NCBI GenBank assembly: GCA_013239625.1
Contig: MU053588.1
Location: forward strand, 2,304,508-2,368,507
Direction of reading: 5' to 3'
From: Lama guanicoe
Taxonomy: Eukaryota
DNA: 64,000 nt
Both the position numbers and the translations under genes were made by a program. The notes under the pieces were generated by a model, which was given only the letters and a program-made list of their open reading frames with translations, was not told where the DNA came from and did not search any database. Position 1 is the first letter of the stretch; each line of letters starts with the position of its first letter. Below, in pieces: positions 28,965 to 49,960 of the stretch.

Positions 28965-29904
28965 GTTACCAGCCCTGCGATCCGCAGGTCATCTGCAACC
29001 GCGTAAACCACGTGCACGGCTGTCTGGCGGAGCTGCAAGAGCAGGCGGCGAGGCGGCGAGCGGATCTGGAGGCCTCACGGAGCCTGTGGGCGCTGCTGCA
29101 GGAGCTGGAAGAGGCCGAGAGCTGGGCCCGCGACAAGGAGCGCCTCCTAGAGGCGGCGGGCGGCGGCGGCGCGGCGGGCGCGGCGAGTCCCGCGGGAGGC
29201 GCACATGACCTGTCCAGCACCGCGCGCCTCTTGGCGCAGCACAAGATCCTGCAGGGAGAGCTGGGCGGGCGGCGGGCACTGCTACAGCAGGCGCTGCGGC
29301 GCGGCGAGGAGCTGGCCGCCGCCGGTGGCGCCGTGGGCCCGGGAGCCGAGACAGTGCACCTGGCGGGCCTGGCGGAGCGCGCGGCGAGCGCGCGGCGACG
29401 CTGGCAGCGGCTGGAAGAGGCGGCGGCGCGGCGCGAGCGGCGGCTGCAGGAGGCGCGAGCGCTGCATCAGTTCGGCGCTGACCTCGACGGGCTCCTGGAC
29501 TGGCTCCGCGACGCCTACCGCCTAGCAGCCGCGGGCGACTTCGGCCACGACGAAGCATCCAGCCGCCGCCTGGCCCGCCAGCACCGCGCGCTCACTGGGG
29601 AGGTGGAGGCGCATCGCGGGCCAGTGGGCGGCCTGCGGCGTCAGCTGGCCACACTTGGGGGCGCTAGTGGCGCTGGGCCATTGGTGGTGGCATTGCAGGT
29701 GCGCGTTGTGGAGGCCGAGCAGCTGTTCGCCGAGGTGACCGAGGTGGCTGCGCTGCGGCGCCAGTGGCTGCGGGATGCCCTCGCCGTCTACCGCATGTTC
29801 GGGGAGGTGCACGCTTGCGAGCTGTGGATCGGTGAGAAGGAGCAATGGCTGCTCGCCATGCGTGTGCCTGATTCACTCGACGACGTCGAGGTGGTGCAGC
29901 ACCG
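28965..29904 (+). CDS. SPTBN4: BetaIV-spectrin exon 14 (940 nt, CpG-island exon)
   Basis: GYQPCDPQVICNRV...DSLDDVEVVQHR; cag|GT to CG|gtgagc. Confidence 0.96.
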
Positions 29905-31220
29905 GTGAGCGCCCGCTTGTGGGACTTCTCGGCCCCCTTTCTCATGCGCACAGTCTCACCTTCCTTGGTTAAACAGTTTCCGTGTTCACTCACCTGGAAC
30001 CAGGGGTTCTAGTAAAATGGGAACGATATTAGTCCCAACCTCACAAACTCCTGGAGAACAGTAAGTGAGTTAATACGTGCAAAATACTTAGCAAATGTCT
30101 GGGTTCAGGGAGCACCCCAGGAGCGTTTGCTATTATTACTATGAGGCTTATAGTCACCTGGCATGAACTTAACCTAAGCTTCTCCAGGGATGCCCCAGCC
30201 TGATCCCTCCCCTGGGACTCTCATTGCCCTTGCATAGATGTCACCTCCCTAGCTAACAAAATTGCTCTGACCTTTGTCACTTTCTATTCCCTCACCCACT
30301 TTATGTTTCTTCATAGCATTTACCACCCTGTGACACAGTAGATACTGGTTTGTCTGTTGGCAGGTTAAGTGATGAGTTTTTAAATTAGTGGATGAACCCT
30401 CTGTGCCTTTCTCTCTGAGCATGTGCATCCATCCACTTATTTCAGTGGGTACTTACTGAGTTCCTACTCTGTTCCAGGCCTTGCTGGAAACACAGGCCTG
30501 GTCCCCTCTGTGACTGTCCACGGTTACCCAAGCCACAGCCTTGGGCATTGTTTTAAATAAGGGAGGGCCATGGCCAGCTTAAAACAGATCTCCCTGGCTG
30601 CCAGGTGGAGGGTGGGTTGGAGTGGGTAAGAACGGTGGCTGGCAGCCCAGAGAGGGAACTGGGGTGGGGACCTAGGTAGGAGGGGACAAGACTGGACCAA
30701 GGCAGGAGTCCAAGTGGACAGGCCATGGGGAAGGCAGGCTTGAGGGGAGTGATGTCCAAAACAGAGCCCAGGGCTCTGGCCTAGGATATAGTAGGGTGGT
30801 TCCTGAGATGGGGACCCAGAGGAAGAACAAATCAGGGGAGATACTGAAGCCAGTTTGAGTCACAGTAGGGAGCCCTGAGGAGGTACATAGCAGGGTTTAA
30901 GGCTGGAGACAGATTCAGAAGGAACAAGGTTGAAGTTAGAGTCAGATGTGGGAGTGATGAGTTCAGGGGTGAGGACTGAAGCTGTGGGGATGGGTGAGAT
31001 GGTCAGGCAGGATGTGGGGGAGAGCTCAGTGGGCCCAGGACAGAGCCCTGAGAAATGTAACATTTAAGTGACAGGTAGAAGAAGAGGAACTGACAAAGGA
31101 GCCTGAGGAGGTAAGGTTGGAGAATTAGGAGGAGAACCAGGAAGAGGCAGCTTTGCAAGAACCAGTGGGCAGGTCCCCAGGGTCCAGGCCTCTCTGAGTA
31201 TGTCCATCCTTCTTCCACAG

Positions 31221-36439: not shown

Positions 36440-39400
36440 AGGCCATACACAGCTTCTGTTCCAGCTTTCCAGATGGGACGGTGTCCCCAGCCATGCTGGT
36501 TGTCAGATGTGGGGAAAGAACTTCCCTGCGGGCCGCAACCACACAGCTCTCTAGGAAGCACCCAGAGTGTGTGTGTTTGTGTGTCTCTTTCATGCTTCTT
36601 TGGCACATTATCCTTCTCTGATTCCGTCACCATCTGTCTCTCACCTCTGCCCTGTCTCCTGTCTGTCCTTGCACTAATCAAGCAAAGGCATTTACTAAGT
36701 GTCCACTGTGTGCCAGGCATGATTCTAGGCCCTGTACAAAACAGCAACAGCCCCCACCCCTCAAAAAAAAATCCGGCCTCAAACAGAGTCCTTTATAGGG
36801 TTTTCTTTAGGCCTACTTCTTTCTGTCATTGTCACTGTTTCTACCTCTCCTGGTGACCTCAGCTTTCTCCTCTCTGGCATGAGTGAGGCAGGAAGAGAGC
36901 CCACTTCCCCTCCTTCTGTCTTCCATCTCCTGATGGAAATCAGTCCCTCCACCGCCAGCCAGAGCCCAGGGACCCCAGCTCTGCCTCTATTTGGGGCTCA
37001 GGTGTCCCTTTCCCCTAAATTTGTCTGGGACAAGGTTGGAGTTCACTCTAAACAAAGCCTTTATGGGGCTTCCCATCCTGAGGATGCAAATGCATGATCT
37101 AGTGCCCCCAGCTCCAGGCCTGGTCCCTTCCTTCCCTTATCCCACATTTCTTGAGTCTTTGCTCTATGCCGAGCTCTGCTGCATGAGGAGGAGGAGGGGC
37201 CTGGAGGGCTGTTCCCTCTGAGTCACACCTTCATTCCTTTGCGGTCATTAATTGCTCCTTTAATTCTATTGTTTATTCATTGATTTTTTAAATTGAAGTA
37301 GCATTGATTTACAGTGTTGCATTAGTTTTATACATTGATTCTTCGGCCAATTAAACACGTACTGAGTCCATGCTGTGTTCCAGCCTTGGTGGGGCGATGC
37401 TCAGAGAGCTCGCAGGCTCTCTAACAAGGGTGACTCAGAATGGTCAGGGCTGGGAGAAAGGAAGCACCAGCAGCTTGGGCAGGGCCTGGAGTGAGAGATG
37501 CAGGGGCCTGTGGGAGCCCTGGGGTCAGACAGGGTCAAGTCCTAGTCCCACCTCTGCCTCTCAACCTGTGAGATTCAGGGCAAGTGACTTCTCTCTCCAT
37601 GTGCCTCACCTCCCCTGGACCTTGGCCCAGCCCTGCCTGCAAGGGGCTCTCCTGGTCTGCATTTGGTACATGAGGCTCAGAGAAGGGAACAGACTTGCCG
37701 GAGGTCACAGCTGTTTTCTCACTCTCCCAGAGATGAGGGATCTTCCTCATCCCTAGGACTGATGCTTGACAAGTTGGCTGGTGAAGGCCTGGAGGGACTG
37801 AGTTCAGTTCAATTTCAGAGGCATTTCCTATTTCCTGGTTCCTGAGCAGAGTCTGGGCAGGAGGGAGTCCGTATCTTGCTTGTCTCTGGTCCTTCCTGTT
37901 CCTCCATTCAGCTCTGCTCTTGGTTCTCTCTGTGACTTGCTCCCTTTGCCTCCATCTCTCCGGACATCTGTATATGTCTATTTCCTTCTGCCTTTCTCTC
38001 TGCTTCTTCTACCTCCATCTGCATCCTCTGTCTTTTTTTCTACATCTCTCTCTCTCTCTTCGTCAGACATGTTACCTTAGTTTCTGCCCTCTTTCTCTCT
38101 GCCTCTCTATCTCTCTTGCTTTCTTTCATTCATCAGCTATGTATTGAGCACCTACTGTGTGCCAGCCCTTTATTCTAGGCATTGGAGATACAGCTGTGAA
38201 CAAAACCAACAAAAGTTCCTGTCCTCACAGAATGACATCCTAGTGGGGGAGACAGATGAGATAAATATGTAACATATACAGGTGTTAGACAGTTTTAAGT
38301 GCAAAGGAGAAAATTAAAGAAGGAAAGAAAGCCAGAAAGTGTTGGGGGGTGGTCAAGAGGGGGTCTCGCTAAGAAGGTGACATTTGAGTACACTTTGAGG
38401 GGAAGAGCATTCCAGGCAGAGGAAACAGCCCACACCAAGGCCCTGAGGTGAGAGTTGCTTGTTCAAGGCACAGCAAAGTGGGATGCCCCCCAGCCCTCTC
38501 CAACAGGCCTCTTGGGCACTTTGCCCTGCACTGTGGGCAGGAGGCCAGGCTGCCTGGGGCTGCAGTGCCGGCTGGCTCTGGGGTGGCAGGGCCTGAGTCC
38601 AGCCTGGCCAGTTCACTTAGGCCAAGGGCCTGCCCCTTCTTGCCTCCCGGTGGCTCCAGCCCCATCTAACCACACCCTCCTCTCATCCCTCTCTCCAGCT
38701 CTGTCACGGCCTTCTGTCTGTCTGGCAGTGTCTTTTACTGGTGGCATCTTGCCACTGCTCTGCCTGTCCCTTTCTAGGCTGTCCCTCCCCTGACTCTCTC
38801 TGTCACTTTCCCTTCCTCTGCTTCCTTCTCTCCTTGACTTCTGCTCTCTCTCTGGCACTACCCACGCTTCATTTCTTTCCTGTCTTCTCCTGTTCTCTCT
38901 ATCCCTGAGTCTCTCTCTCTTCATCTGTCTCTCCAAATCTCTCCCTCTGGAGGTCTCTGTTTCTCTGTCTCTGGCCTTGTGTCTGTGTGTTTCTGTTTCT
39001 CTCTCTAGGCCTTTGCATCTCTCTACCTCTCTGAATCTATCTGTCTCTCCTTCTTGACCTCTCTTACTCTCTAGGTGTTTCTGTTATCTCTGTCTCTAGG
39101 ATTGTATCCCTTTGTTACTCTGTGTCTAAGTGTATTTCTTTCTTTCCAGATATCTGTCTGTCTCTATTCCTCTCTCTCCCATTCTCTCTCCCTCTCTCTC
39201 CCTCCCTCTTCCTCTCCCTCTCTTTCCCTCTCCCCACCTCCCCCAGTCTCCCTCTCCCAGCTCTGTCCGTGGCTCTGCCCCTACTGATGTTTCTTTGCCT
39301 CTCCTCCCATCCCCACCTTGCTTTCCCCTCTTCCTCGCTGGTACATATGCCCCAGATTCCTAGTCCTGCCAAGCCCGATGCCCCCACAGCCCTACTGCCA

Positions 39401-39449: not shown

Positions 39450-39540
39450 GAGCCAAGAAAACCAGCTACGGGCCCAGCAATGGATGCAGAAGCTACACGA
39501 CCAACTTGGGCTGCAGCACTTCCTCCGGGACTGCCACGAG
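39450..39540 (+). CDS. SPTBN4: BetaIV-spectrin exon 18
   Basis: SQENQLRAQQWMQKLHDQLGLQHFLRDCHE; ag/gt boundaries. Confidence 0.95.
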
Positions 39541-39663
39541 GTAGGAATTCCAGCTGTGCTGAGCACAGGGACTTCTTTCCTAGGGAGGGAAGTGCTCCAA
39601 GACAGAGGCGCGGTGGGGGCGGGGACGCCCCGTCTAAGTGGGTCGCGGAGCGATGTTCACTTC

Positions 39664-39682
39664 GTGCCGCCAGGAGGCGCGC
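39664..39682 (+). promoter_or_regulatory. CTCF-like motif
   Basis: GTGCCGCCAGGAGGCGCGC fits the CCRCCAGGDGGCGC core and sits in a CpG-retaining patch. Confidence 0.55.
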
Positions 39683-40829
39683 GGATCCTGGCCTTAGTGC
39701 GCATGCCCCTCAAGTCTCTCTCCTCCGCCCACGCGGGCAGCGGGGAAGGAGGGAGGGACCTTGGTCGCCCCTGGCAACGGAGCCCGTCCACTCCTACGGG
39801 TCCCGCGGGGACGCGCGGTGATCTCACCTTTCCCTCAGGAGATTCGTGAGAAGCGCCCTGCTGTGGGGAAGGACCCGAGACACGAGAGCTGGGGGGAGGT
39901 GTGGGTGGTGGTACCAGCAGCCCAGAGCGCAGCTTCAGTCAGAGATGGTCCAGGACCAAGCCTTCGCCCTTTAAGTGTCTAGAAATCAAGCTCTGCCCTT
40001 TAAGAGATGATCTACACACCTATAAGGATCACCCCAAATCAGAAGTGATCCAGGTCCCCTTTTCCACTAGAGACGGTTCGGGAGACACATTGCTTCTCTC
40101 TCCTTCCCCTGCATTCCCTAGAAACTGTACTGGATCCTGACCACATAAGAGATGGCCCTATGAGAGATGACCCAGTAAATATTTTCCTAACCCAAACAGA
40201 GATGGTCCCGGCCTCATCTAGTTACCTGACCTAGGATCATTAGCACCCCCTCCACGATGATACAGTACTTAAGTTTACCCCAACCAAAGATGGTTCAGGA
40301 ACCAGGCCCCAATCCCCCCAATTAAAGATGATTTGATTCCCTCCATGTGAACACCCATGATAGATTGTGTTCCCCACACATGAAATGGACAAGGGCTTCC
40401 ATACCCCGCCCCACCCCCAATAACTCAAGCCCATTAGAGATGGGTCTGGGACTCTAGCCTACTAGAGGTGAGTTCAGGAATCCCCGTCCCCGTCCTTTCC
40501 ACTGGAGATTATTCTGGACTGAAGTCTTATAGGAGATGTTCCAGGCCCCCTCCAGTATTTCCTATATAGCTGAGGTAGCCAGAAATCTGAGCCCTTTCCC
40601 AATAGAGATGGTTCAGGTGCCTACCCCACCCAGCCCCCTCACGTAGCGGAGGCAGCCCAGGCCCCGGCCTCCCTCTACCCCTAGCCGTTCGATTTGGCCC
40701 AGGAACCCCTTCTGCCTCTCGTTAGATTGTTCTGGACCAAGCAGCAATCGTCTGAGATGGCCCACAACAACCCCCCACCCCCAACTCCGCCATGCTTTAG
40801 GGAGGGTAGTGATTCTTTCTCTACCCGCA

Positions 40830-41280
40830 TCGAGGGCCCGGCAGGGAGGCGGGCACGGAGGCAGGCAGGGGGCGGGCGCGGGCGGGCGCGCGGCCGGGGC
40901 GCGGGGGTGGGGGCGGGGGCGCGCGTCCGCCGGAGCCTCAGCCGTCACCACCGCTGCCGCCGCCGTCGCAGTGGAGGGGCAAGAGCCCTCCCGCCCGCCA
41001 CAGGGACGCCCTGCCAACGCCTCTGACACTTCAGGTCTCAGGGGCGCCTAGGGGAGGGGGCTGATGCGCGCCCCCGCCGAGGCAGGCGGGGGAGGGGGCT
41101 TGGGCGCGTGCTCGCCGACCCGCCGCGGGAGGGAGGGGCGCTGGCGGCGCGAGGGCGGGTGGACCAGGAGCAGGGACCCCAGCCCTGGGGAGGGGCCCAG
41201 ACTCCGGGAGCTGTCCGCGGTGCTGCTGCGGGCGGGACTGAGGGGCCAGGTCCCAAGGGACCGTGGCGAAAAAGGGGGCA
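40830..41280 (+). promoter_or_regulatory. SPTBN4: Internal CpG-island promoter and candidate alternative first exon for short betaIV isoforms (sigma5/sigma6 type)
   Basis: Non-coding CpG island with GC boxes in intron 18; candidate donor CAG|gtctca at 41034/41035; in-frame AAGATG at 43388 in the next exon. Confidence 0.7.
41207..41227 (-). promoter_or_regulatory. RE1/NRSE (REST-binding) element
   Basis: Plus strand GGAGCTGTCCGCGGTGCTGCT versus consensus GGCGCTGTCCGTGGTGCTGAA: 17/21 identical, with both core half-sites and canonical spacing intact. Confidence 0.7.
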
Positions 41281-41896
41281 CTTCTAAGGCTACTCCTGTG
41301 GTAGTGTGGATTTGCCCTGGAGGTTAAGGGGGTCTCAACCTCTCTAGGAGGCTCTCTCAGATCCCCCTCTGGGTAATGGGGGATCTGAGATTTGCCCTGG
41401 GGTTGGGGGACTCTCAACCTTTGGAGCCGTCCTTTCCTAATTCTTGTGGAATCTGTCAGCCTTAGATGGTGGGGGCGAATCACTTTTGCGGGGGTCTACC
41501 TTGGGCGATAAGGGTCTTGGATTTGGTCTGGGTTTGGGAGGCTCTGACTTTTGAAGGCTTTTTCCTGGGTTATTGGGAACTCTGGCTTTGCCCTCAGTGT
41601 TAGGGCTCAGTCACTTTTGGGGGGCTTTACCTTGATGACGGAGTACCTCTCCTACAGGGGCTTTGCTTTCCCTGTGAGCTGTGGCTGCCATTAGCGAACT
41701 CTTCCCGGCTTGTTGGGAACCTGTGAATTGCGTTGGGGGATTCAGCATTTGACTTGGCTCTAGTGGTGTGTGTGTGTGTATGAGGGAGTCTGAAGCTGTC
41801 CTGGCCCCCTGGGGAGCGCATGCTCAGGGGACACGGAGCGGGTTTGGCCAGCTGGGGATTTGTCCTTGGCTATGACTGCAAGCTAGAGTCCGTGTT

Positions 41897-42274
41897 NNNN
41901 NNNNNNNNNNNNNNNNNNNNNNNNNNNNNNNNNNNNNNNNNNNNNNNNNNNNNNNNNNNNNNNNNNNNNNNNNNNNNNNNNNNNNNNNNNNNNNNNNNNN
42001 NNNNNNNNNNNNNNNNNNNNNNNNNNNNNNNNNNNNNNNNNNNNNNNNNNNNNNNNNNNNNNNNNNNNNNNNNNNNNNNNNNNNNNNNNNNNNNNNNNNN
42101 NNNNNNNNNNNNNNNNNNNNNNNNNNNNNNNNNNNNNNNNNNNNNNNNNNNNNNNNNNNNNNNNNNNNNNNNNNNNNNNNNNNNNNNNNNNNNNNNNNNN
42201 NNNNNNNNNNNNNNNNNNNNNNNNNNNNNNNNNNNNNNNNNNNNNNNNNNNNNNNNNNNNNNNNNNNNNNNNNN
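41897..42274. other. Assembly gap (378 N)
   Basis: Run of N. Confidence 1.
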
Positions 42275-43363
42275 TGGGGTTGGGGGGGGGGAGAAGGGGA
42301 AGAAGCAAACTGTCCCAGGTGCCAGGTTTGGTCATGAGTGGGGAGGTTCCAGTTTAGGAGACAAGTCTTACTGGGAGGGGGATGGTGGCTCAGAAAGCAG
42401 CAGTGTGATTGGTCCTGCTGAAGGTAGTGAGAGGGGCCCACTATTGGTACTTACATTTTGAATGACTGGTTTTGTTGGTGAATGGGGGGACTAGAACTGA
42501 CTTTAGTTTGGGACAGGGGGCTGACTTGACGGGGATTCTATCTAGTCCGTGCTGGGGAGTCTGGTGCTAGATTTGAGGCTAGGTTCATTTGGGGAGCAAG
42601 AGGGTAGCCCTGATGCTTGCATTTGGAGGGCCGCCTTTGAGGGCTAGAACTGGTCATGGTTTAGGGGAACTGTGGTCTTGGGCTGGATCTTCAATGCTGG
42701 ATTTGGGGAGTCCTGTGGGCTCATTAGGGAGGCTGGACCTGGGTTGTGGGGGATAGGTCTACCGCAGATTGAAGAGATGGTTTGGAAGGAACTAGACTTG
42801 GCGTTAGTTAAGAGGTTTTTTTTAGAGGTTCATTTGGCCATATTGGGGGCCTGGGGTTAGATATGGGGGCTTCACTTGATACATTTGGGAATGGGTTAGG
42901 GATCTGGAATTGGTCTTTATTGGAAGTGGCTGAGACTGAATGAAAGGATCTAAGTGTTGCCATGGTGGGAGAGCATGGTTGAACTGGAAGACAGCTAAAT
43001 TCTAAATTGGAGGGCTTGTTTTGGAGGGTTGATTTGGCTGTGGGCAGGAGGGGGCTGACTGGCCCAGGAACCCTGCCTTGGGGCTTAAAGCTTATGAGGA
43101 GTTGAAAAGGGCTGTCCTGCGGATAGAGGGACTAAGGGATGAGGCATTCTAGTGGCTCATCCATCCATCCTCCACCCCTTAGGAAAGGGCTTGAGCATGC
43201 CCCCATAAGGCCTCACTTGAAAAGGTCTTTCCATCCTACCTTGCTCTCCTTCCGAAATCCCAGAAACCTAGGCCCTGAACCTGGGACATCACAGAGTGGG
43301 TGGGGATGGGGGTCTATGCCAGGTTGGGGGAATTGGCCAAGCCCCTCCCCTTGTCCTGAACAG

Positions 43364-43510
43364 CTGGATGGCTGGATCCATGAGAAGATGCTGATGGCGC
43401 GGGATAGCACGCGGGAAGATGGCCACAAGCTGCATAAGCGATGGCTCCGGCACCAGGCATTCATGGCCGAGCTAGCTCAGAATAAGGAGTGGCTGGAGAA
43501 GATCGAGAGG
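43364..43510 (+). CDS. SPTBN4: BetaIV-spectrin exon 19
   Basis: LDGWIHEKMLMARDSTREDGHKLHKRWLRHQAFMAELAQNKEWLEKIER; ag/gt boundaries. Confidence 0.96.
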
Positions 43511-47401: not shown

Positions 47402-49960
47402 CACGTGCAAGGTGTGTGATGTTAGGCCCATGACTTTGCCTCTGGTCTAAGCCTCAGGTGCCTCCTCTGTGCGATGGGAAGGACCCTGATGCTAAGCCAC
47501 TCGGTGACAGCAGGACTGTGGGAGCCTCATCCACAGTCAAAGCCATGGATGCTGGAGCCTGGCTGCTTGGGGTCAAGCCCAGCTCTGTGACTTATACCAA
47601 CTGGGTGACTTAAAACGACTCCTCTTTTTTGGCTTCAGTTTCTTCTTCAGTAAAATGGGCAGAATAACAGTAGTGATTTCATCTGGACATTGTAAAGATT
47701 ACAAGACAGACTGCATTAAGTAGTTTCAGAATCGCTGACCCAACAAATCTAACTAAGAGATAATGCCTGTTTATAGGTTTAAAATTTTTAATTGTCTCCA
47801 GCCGCAGGGTACATCATCACTATACTGTGTTCAGAAGTTGGGTTATTATTTTCCCACCTCTGGCAGATTGTTATTGATGTGAAACAGTTTGTTTCATTTG
47901 TTTCTGTTTGTCTTCCATTTTGGTATTCCCTCCTATCCATATACTTTTAAAAAGTGGTTTAGGGGGTGATACATGAAACATTAACACAAATGCCAAAAGT
48001 TAGAACTGTCTGCAGTTCACCTGATGGTAACAGATTGATTGCCTGAGTCCTGATGCCACTGAATGCTCTGTCCCCAGCAGCAAATGACAGCTCTTGCTTC
48101 CACCTGTACTCACCACCACTTGGTATTGTCAGACTGTTTAGATTTTTCTGATGGAAAGGAAGCATATCTCACTGTGGTGTCTGCATTTGGATTTGGGTGG
48201 GTAACTGGTGACCCTGGGTGTCCTTGGCTCCTTTTTTGGCATTTAGATGTCAGAGGGAGGATCTGGGGCCTCCTGCCCAAGACAAGTACAGGGTCGGCTC
48301 TTCCCTTCATAGACTGGGTTTAGCCCCACCAAGCCCTGGAGACCAAGAGGTTTCCCCATTGTTTAAGGGAGAGACTGAGGCCCAGGGTGGACTAGAGCCT
48401 GGCTCGGGGTCACACAGCAATGGGCAGGCCCCAGCACAGGACTCCTGGGCTCTTTCCCCAGCAGAGGGAGCTCGTGACTCAGTGGGCCAAGGCCCCCGGA
48501 TGGAGCCCAGCTGGGGCCTCTCGAGCTGCCACTTGGGAGGGGGTCCTCCCCAGGTCCCACTGTCTTTTGTGGCCCGCCTGAGATCCCAGACACTGGGCGT
48601 AGGCAGGAGGGAGAGGTCAGTCCAGACGGGCGCGTTTCCTGGCTGCCCCATCTTTCAGGCCACAGGGGCCAGGCTGGGCTGCCGGAGGTGCGGGCCCTGG
48701 GTCGGAGGGAGTGTGGATGTGTGAGGGATTTGTCCCCCTCTGCGTCACCCTGGGCCCGTCTCCCAATCCTGCTCCCCCAGTTCCTCTGGGTCTCTGTTTC
48801 TCTTAGTTTTTTCTCTCCCATCTCTGTCTCTCTCTCTTTGCCCTTCTATCTCCATCTCTGGGCCTCTTTCTCTTCCTCTGACTCTCTCACTCTCTTCTCT
48901 TTGTCTCTTTCTGTTTCACTTCCCCATCCCTGCCTCTCTCCCTTGATCTCGCCTTATGCCTGTGTCCTCCTCTTGTCCTTCCCCTTGTCCCCTGCCCCTG
49001 CAGCAGCCTGCCTGGAACCCCACCTCCTGGGTCTAGGCCACGTGACCCAGAGTCCTCCCTCGGGTCTGCTGTCCAACTGTCCTTCCTGGCGGAGGGGCCA
49101 GATGGTGGAGTCCCAAGCTCCTGCTTTCCCAGTCCTCGGGGGCCTGACCAGCTGGTCTGGCTCAGCCACCAGCTCCTGCTCCAGGAGGAAAGTGGGAAGC
49201 TGGTCTCCTGCCATCCGAGGGGACCAGCTAGGGGAAAATGCACTGGAGGCTCTGCAGCTGCTGGGCTGAGTCCCTGGGGACGCCTTACTACCCACAACCT
49301 AAGTGAGGCTCTTTCTCTGGCCAAGGAAACACCCTCTCCCCCACTTCTCATTATTTGTCCCACATTTTCTTCATCTGGCTCAGCATGGCCCAGGGACAGG
49401 AGCTACACAGTCCAGGGTTAGAATGCCCCTTCTATTACCATGTGACTGAGGGCAGGTGACCCCATCTTTCTGAGCCTCATTACCCCTGATCACAGAGCAG
49501 CAGTGTGATTGAGGGCCACTAGGGTTTTGTGGTCACATGATCCTGGGTACAAATTCTGGTGCTGGCAGTTTTTACTTTAGACCAGAGACTGATCCTCTCG
49601 GAGCCTCAATTTCCACAACTGGAATATGGGAAGGCAGCAGGTGGACCCAAGTAGGAATCAGGTTGATGTGGGAGTCGGGGCTTGCCAGTCACCATGTGGC
49701 AAAATGCCTGAGGCTTTTTTGGAAGTAGGTGCCTCTGTTCTTTGTTTTGGTTTTCACCTTTAATACCTTTTTTTTAAAAAAAAATGAGACATAATTCTAT
49801 GCTTTAAAATGCATAATTTTAAAGTGAACAATTCAGTGGTTTTTAGTATATTTGCAAAGTTGAGCAACTCTCCTCACTATTTAATTCCAGAAAGAAACCC
49901 TGTACCCATCAGCTCCCTCTACTAATTTACTTCCTTTACTCTATGGATTTGCCTATTTTG

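What the first reader, a model, noticed from the sequence alone, without database searches (positions are those of the whole stretch)
40830..43390. Internal SPTBN4 promoter carries a near-canonical REST/RE1 silencer: candidate switch for the short neuronal isoforms
Seen: a non-coding CpG island in intron 18 with stacked GC boxes and G4-capable G runs (40846-40925), a candidate donor at 41034, a 17/21 RE1 match at 41207-41227 about 170 nt further on, and an in-frame ATG with A at -3 at 43388 (MLMARD...). I saw no comparable RE1 at the main promoter. Known: N-truncated betaIV-sigma6 starts internally and becomes the dominant axon-initial-segment and node isoform as neurons mature, and REST declines with neuronal maturation. 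Inference: REST gates this promoter specifically, which could explain the developmental isoform switch.
Basis: partly seen in the sequence, partly recalled or inferred. Interest (0 to 1): 0.7.

Follow-up and report, generated by a model that had tools for sequence, protein, structure and literature searches.

The report
REST silencer beside SPTBN4 internal promoter
A known repressor of neuronal genes (REST) has a conserved binding site right beside the internal start of the short form of betaIV-spectrin, which may explain why that form is kept low outside mature nerve cells, though whether it times the postnatal switch is untested.

Summary
The window is mammalian SPTBN4, and the CpG island lies in intron 18. 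The RE1 at 41207-41227 (minus strand) is the only strong one in 64 kb. It is the orthologue of a mouse site bound by REST in ES and neural stem cells: 17/21 identical, same orientation, 1666 versus 1649 bp from the upstream exon. A strong mouse-conserved REST peak is also listed in human SPTBN4; none was found for the main promoter. The mouse Sigma6-specific primer maps to 41005-41022, so a Sigma6 first exon probably lies here. The GC boxes and G4 runs are at chance level, and the 41034 donor is weak and unproven. REST occupancy and the internal start were each already published; I found no paper linking them. Most likely REST damps the short-isoform promoter in stem, progenitor and non-neural cells (about 0.6). 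That REST decline times the postnatal Sigma1-to-Sigma6 switch is less likely (about 0.25): dominant-negative REST did not change Spnb4 in ES or neural stem cells, and Sigma6 keeps rising into adulthood. A new, directly testable member of a known kind.

The parts
2640..3120 (+). Main (Sigma1) promoter CpG island with non-coding exon 1, donor at 2956
   Evidence: GC 0.76, o/e 0.86; donor; exon 1 is inferred from position, no transcript data
2916..2936 (+). Degenerate RE1-like match in exon 1 (14/21); not comparable to the intron-18 site
   Evidence: no BLVRB-labelled or main-promoter REST peak found in the human/mouse ESC table
29391..29411 (+). Orthologue of the weak mouse REST ChIP-PET site (5 PETs) in exon 14; used to fix orientation
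   Evidence: 19/21 to the printed mouse motif
39450..39540 (+). SPTBN4 exon 18 (last exon specific to the long isoform)
   Evidence: mouse Sigma1 primer maps at 39467, 18/21
39590..39900 (.).
   Evidence: GC 0.69, o/e 0.86; three first exons reported in mouse; the role is inference only
40830..41260 (+). Intron-18 CpG island: internal (Sigma6-type) promoter and first exon
   Evidence: primer mapping; promoter activity not measured
40868..40921 (+). G runs with three GC boxes, two G4-pattern matches and two of three EGR-type sites (third at 41069)
   Evidence: GC boxes and G4 at chance level; EGR-type 3 seen vs 0.31 expected, 7 of 3000 shuffles, post hoc among 12 tests
41005..41022 (+). Best window match to the mouse Sigma6-specific RT-qPCR forward primer: probable first-exon sequence
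   Evidence: 14/18, best on either strand; 133 of 5000 shuffled primers do as well somewhere in intron 18
41034..41085 (+). Unresolved first-exon donor: weak GT after 41034, or GC-type donors after 41081 or 41085
   Evidence: scores -2.7, 4.1 and 7.6 (GC sites scored on flanks only)
41207..41227 (-). Canonical-spacing RE1/NRSE, orthologue of the REST-bound mouse site
41897..42274 (.). Assembly gap (378 N) inside intron 18; could hide another first exon
43364..43510 (+). Exon 19: shared second exon of the short isoform, start ATG at 43388-43390
   Evidence: mouse common reverse primer maps at 43434, 19/21; mouse Sigma6 starts at Met1321

Best explanation
The island is the internal promoter and first exon of the N-truncated betaIV-spectrin isoform(s), which splice to exon 19 and start at the ATG at 43388. 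The RE1 about 185 nt downstream of the primer-matched exon sequence binds REST. In REST-rich cells (ES cells, neural progenitors, most non-neural cells) REST and its co-repressors damp this promoter more than the main promoter 38 kb upstream. REST loss is permissive; the steep postnatal rise of Sigma6 needs activators as well, with EGR-type factors one candidate. Shown: the motif, its orthology, REST occupancy in mouse ES and neural stem cells, and that mouse Sigma6 uses alternative first exons. Inferred: the TSS in this island, the donor used, repression of this promoter in particular, and the activators.
For: The mouse motif under the REST PET cluster is 17/21 identical to 41207-41227, its best window hit, antisense to the gene in both species, 1649 vs 1666 bp from the upstream exon in introns of 3645 vs 3823 bp. 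Human ESC peak score 1706, marked conserved, against 57 for the only other SPTBN4 peak; one conserved mouse peak. No main-promoter peak found. Sigma6 primer maps to 41005-41022. REST-responsive genes tend to have the site near the TSS. SPTBN4 rises at least 2-fold in 2 of 3 human lines on REST knockdown. Gene-trap expression is limited to neurons, islets and spermatids; neurons and islet cells are REST-low (recalled). Sigma6 mRNA rises while Sigma1 falls only slightly, as expected if a separate promoter turns on.
Against: Spnb4 is not among the genes changed by dominant-negative REST in ESC (441) or NSC (911); the only gene tied to this PET cluster in that list is Sertad3, 1.32-fold, 77.6 kb away. 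A Sigma6-type fusion cDNA was cloned from ES cells, and the trap was induced 17-fold by 6 h of retinoic acid, so repression is not absolute. The knockdown data are not isoform-resolved. The gene names were not found in two other REST supplements (10 files; 1 file); I did not see what those files hold. The primer match is modest (133 of 5000). The 41034 donor is weak, and with it no in-frame stop falls 72 nt upstream of the ATG as described in mouse.
Confidence: 0.6

Rival explanations
1. [quoted passage not shown]
For: The site is still occupied in neural stem cells. The switch is transcript-level and also occurs in unmyelinated cultures. Precedents: REST times Gabra6 onset in postmitotic granule neurons; RE1s flank the KCC2b first exon and a cited title reports control of its developmental switch.
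Against: Sigma6 keeps rising from P1 to 5 months, later than the main fall of REST at neuronal differentiation (recalled). REST is reported to rise again in some postmitotic neurons and to be moderately high at 5 weeks. No derepression by dominant-negative REST in NSC. For KCC2 a 1.4 kb promoter alone suffices for neuronal restriction. No neuronal occupancy time course was found.
Confidence: 0.25
2. The site is bound but redundant: the promoter is held off by other means (missing activators, Polycomb, methylation), and REST loss changes little.
For: Most REST-bound genes were not derepressed by dominant-negative REST, and Spnb4 is not listed. 1 of 3 human lines showed no 2-fold response. EGR-type sites are enriched in the island.
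Against: The site is conserved across mouse, this species and probably human, close to the first exon. 2 of 3 lines respond.
Confidence: 0.15
3. The RE1 acts on the whole locus at long range (main SPTBN4 promoter or a neighbouring gene); its place beside the internal exon is not isoform-specific.
For: The whole gene is largely neuron-restricted, yet no main-promoter REST peak was found, so this site could serve both promoters. Sertad3 was assigned to the cluster.
Against: Responsive genes are biased to TSS-proximal sites. Sigma1 is already the main form in early neurons while Sigma6 is low.
Confidence: 0.15

Closest known systems
Mouse Sptbn4 Sigma6 alternative first exons (Komada and Soriano 2002, PMC2199236; passages read)
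   Same: Same second exon and start Met; an 81-bp distinct 5' sequence; the Sigma6 primer maps into this island.
   Different: That paper names three first exons; the passages read give no promoter location and do not mention REST. A 2019 review calls the switch alternative splicing (PMC6906172, passages).
REST ChIP site in Spnb4/SPTBN4 (Johnson 2008, PMC2573930; Rockowitz and Zheng 2015, PMC4499139; supplement rows and passages read)
   Same: The same motif and position in mouse; a conserved human peak.
   Different: Filed only as intronic or under the long-isoform accessions; not linked to the internal promoter in the rows seen.
KCC2b (SLC12A5) promoter with RE1s upstream and in its first intron (review PMC9305173, passages; primary papers not read)
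   Same: Downstream alternative first exon, postnatally rising neuronal isoform, RE1 in the first intron, EGR-type sites.
   Different: KCC2b has two RE1s and functional tests; here there is one strong site and no functional test, and the product loses nine spectrin repeats and the actin-binding domain.
REST timing of Gabra6 in cerebellar granule neurons (PMC3057710; abstract and one results section)
   Same: REST as a permissive brake in early postmitotic neurons, with an activator acting after it leaves.
   Different: A whole-gene promoter, not an isoform choice.
REST-regulated internal promoter of MIR137 (PMC4393679; search listing only)
   Same: An internal promoter under REST control.
   Different: A microRNA host gene, not a truncated protein isoform.

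Membership tests
Canonical RE1/NRSE | Left and right half-sites with a 2-bp spacer, close to the 21-nt consensus | tested here: met
   Exact core, 17/21 (consensus recalled); the mouse orthologue is on the paper's Canonical RE1 sheets. It was not found in that paper's list of 1166 predicted sites.
Canonical RE1/NRSE | More than chance for the local composition | tested here: met
   6 of 20,000 island shuffles; 3 of 200 window shuffles
Canonical RE1/NRSE | Conserved in position and sequence across mammals | tested here: met
   Mouse 17/21, same orientation, 1649 vs 1666 bp. Human only through a peak marked conserved; the human motif was not seen.
Canonical RE1/NRSE | Occupied by REST in vivo | tested here: met
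   From published tables, for the orthologous mouse site in ESC and NSC and human ESC; not measured in this species or in neurons.
REST-repressed promoter | Derepression on REST loss | tested here: inconclusive
   Up in 2 of 3 human lines at gene level; not listed in mouse ESC or NSC
REST-repressed promoter | Loss of repression on RE1 mutation | not testable with these tools
   No such experiment found in the paper searches
Sigma6 internal promoter | Sigma6-specific 5' exon sequence lies in the island | tested here: inconclusive
   Primer best hit 14/18 at 41005; 133 of 5000 shuffles do as well in intron 18. Supportive, not decisive.
Sigma6 internal promoter | Capped TSS and first-exon junction to exon 19 | not tested
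   No read-level data obtained; 17 homologous proteins read showed no first-exon-derived N-terminus
Sigma6 internal promoter | In-frame start Met in exon 19 | tested here: met
   ATG 43388; matches the description of mouse Met1321
REST-timed developmental isoform switch (KCC2b type) | Occupancy falls as the isoform rises, and REST loss advances the rise | not testable with these tools
   No neuronal time course found; timing data cut both ways

The most novel reading that the evidence does not exclude
REST occupancy at this single conserved RE1 sets the ratio of short to long betaIV-spectrin. [quoted passage not shown]
Probability: 0.25. Interest if true: 0.75.

Novelty: new member of a known kind. 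Interest (0 to 1): 0.52.

Why it matters
The passages read on the Sigma1-to-Sigma6 switch offer no upstream regulator and treat it as splicing. A conserved, demonstrably REST-bound site about 0.2 kb from the probable Sigma6 first exon turns this into a one-site test: delete 21 bp, or recount two junctions in existing REST-loss RNA-seq. It would also mark intron 18 as a place to look for non-coding variants in SPTBN4 neurodevelopmental disease, and would link REST re-induction in disease to axon initial segment structure.

Tried and rejected
GC boxes and G4 runs as evidence of a promoter: rejected, chance level. Donor at 41034 as established: rejected, weak and unresolved. Finding the first junction through proteins with a first-exon-derived N-terminus: the search gave 36 hits; the 17 new ones were read and were genomic read-throughs or ordinary exon joins. 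Sequencing runs: 8 RNA or possibly-RNA runs held 0.10-0.20 of the island's words; no read alignment was obtained, so this is no evidence. Neuron versus non-neuron occupancy: gene names and coordinates were not found in 10 supplementary files of PMC4055426, nor gene names in the 1 file of PMC4371837; contents not inspected, uninformative. Human anchor for exons 18-19: only an exon-16 coordinate was found; the human peak lies 10.8-11.0 kb downstream of it against about 7.1 kb here (my estimate), compatible but not proof. Retinoic acid elements: no direct repeat with at most 1 mismatch in or near the island; the nearest DR5-like match is at 37801 in intron 17. PMC3784285 and PMC2172023 (passages) gave nothing on the internal promoter. 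Earlier scan findings: nothing.

Full report
Gene and place. The window is mammalian SPTBN4: the long frame at 28970-29908 is 97-98% identical to pig SPTBN4, and exon 19 is 100% identical to a Camelus ferus protein, so a camelid is likely. tblastn mapped the coding exons and the boundaries were read off. Intron 18 also holds a second CpG island at 39590-39900 and a 378-base gap at 41897-42274.

The RE1 is real. 41207-41227 on the minus strand matches a recalled 21-nt consensus at 17 positions; the next best in the window is 15. It is the only exact core among 11 hits with up to 2 mismatches. 6 of 20,000 dinucleotide shuffles of the island and 3 of 200 shuffles of the window reach 17/21. The main promoter has only a 14/21 match in exon 1.

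It is the orthologue of a REST-bound site. The supplements of Johnson 2008 (PMC2573930; rows and passages seen) list a Spnb4 intronic ChIP-PET cluster in ES cells (14 PETs) and neural stem cells (13 PETs). The two listed distances, read as distances to the flanking exons, give an intron of 3645 bp. The canonical motif printed for it has its best window match at exactly 41207-41227, 17/21. A second, weak mouse site maps to exon 14 at 29391-29411 (19/21) and fixes the orientation. The strong motif is then antisense to the gene in both species and lies 1649 bp (mouse) and 1666 bp (here) from the upstream exon. Rockowitz and Zheng 2015 (PMC4499139; rows and passages; 1 supplementary file could not be searched) list two human ESC peaks in SPTBN4, one scoring 1706 and marked conserved, one scoring 57, and a single conserved mouse peak. 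No row carries BLVRB, and none was found at the expected main-promoter coordinates (those coordinates are recalled). That the human peak is this site is inferred: I did not lift coordinates or see the human motif, and the one human anchor found is in exon 16 (passage of PMC8298470).

The island is probably a Sigma6 first exon. Komada and Soriano 2002 (PMC2199236; passages) report that mouse Sigma6 starts at Met1321, has a distinct 81-bp 5' sequence and uses three different first exons. The Sigma6-specific primer of Yoshimura 2017 (PMC5226651; parts 1-3 of 4 read) has its best window match at 41005-41022, 14/18, while the two control primers map to exons 18 and 19 at 18/21 and 19/21. 133 of 5000 shuffled primers do as well somewhere in intron 18, so this is support, not proof. 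The donor is unresolved. The GT after 41034 scores below all 26 annotated donors located (27 sought; matrix built from the same sites) and gives no in-frame stop 72 nt before the ATG as in mouse; GC-type donors after 41081 and 41085 are rivals. No TSS or junction was observed in this species. The GC boxes and G4 runs are at chance level; three EGR-type sites are not (7 of 3000 shuffles, post hoc among 12 tests; motif recalled).

Does REST act on it? For: SPTBN4 rose at least 2-fold in 2 of 3 human lines on REST knockdown, 3.0-fold in one column (PMC2883591, rows and passages). Responsive genes tend to have TSS-proximal sites. Gene-trap expression is confined to neurons, islets and spermatids. 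Sigma6 mRNA rises with age while Sigma1 falls only slightly. Against: Spnb4 is absent from the dominant-negative REST lists (441 ESC, 911 NSC genes), where this cluster is tied only to Sertad3 at 1.32-fold. A Sigma6-type cDNA came from ES cells, with 17-fold induction by retinoic acid in 6 h. None of the expression data are isoform-resolved. Two other REST supplements gave no hit, contents unseen.

Does REST time the switch? Precedent exists: Gabra6 (PMC3057710, abstract and one section) and KCC2b (review PMC9305173, passages), though a 1.4 kb KCC2 promoter alone suffices for neuronal restriction. But Sigma6 keeps rising from P1 to 5 months, and REST is reported to rise again in some postmitotic neurons and to be moderately high at 5 weeks (bioRxiv 10.1101/2020.07.07.192229, passages; its supplements, which may list the site in hippocampus, could not be seen). 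I therefore favour a permissive brake in stem, progenitor and non-neural cells plus later activators (0.6) over a REST timer (0.25), a redundant site (0.15) or locus-wide action (0.15); these readings partly overlap.

Novelty. Both halves are in print separately: the internal start of Sigma6, and REST occupancy filed as intronic. Six full-text searches aimed at the link (listings only for most papers) showed no paper making it, and a 2019 review treats the switch as splicing (PMC6906172, passages). The library lacks most subscription papers, including Uemoto 2007 on the Sigma6 knockout and Tse 2001 on Sigma5, which I did not read and which may describe this promoter. Verdict: a new member of a known kind (REST-controlled alternative neuronal promoter), interest 0.52; the bold reading has probability 0.25 and interest 0.75.

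Noticed in passing
window 39590-39900: A second CpG island in intron 18 directly after exon 18, with an NRF1-like and an EGR-type motif (recalled patterns); candidate for another Sigma6 first exon. No strong GT donor found.
   Followed up: partly
window 40901, 40913, 41069: Three EGR-type sites in the island and none at the main promoter; a lead for an activity-driven postnatal activator, as for KCC2b.
   Followed up: partly
window 41207-41227: The RE1 here has two CpGs in its core against one in mouse, so binding may be more methylation-sensitive in this species.
   Followed up: no
window 41064-41066: An upstream ATG: in frame with exon 19 (14-residue extension) if the 41081 donor is used, out of frame with 41085, intronic with 41034.
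   Followed up: partly
window 29391-29411: Orthologue of a weak REST ChIP-PET site inside coding exon 14; a weak human ESC peak lies at a compatible distance upstream of the main one.
   Followed up: partly
window 1230-1720 (minus strand, ATG at 1310-1312): A head-to-head gene with its own CpG island; read by eye as BLVRB (name recalled), separated from the SPTBN4 promoter by a TG-rich tract at about 1800-2660.
   Followed up: no
window 48478-49269: A 263-codon open frame in intron 20 with a pyrimidine tract and acceptor-like site near 49002; possibly an alternative exon, possibly chance.
   Followed up: no
window 37801: A DR5-like repeat (1 mismatch) in intron 17, of note only because the mouse gene trap was retinoic-acid inducible.
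   Followed up: no
window 41897-42274: Assembly gap of 378 N in intron 18, 670 bp downstream of the RE1.
   Followed up: no
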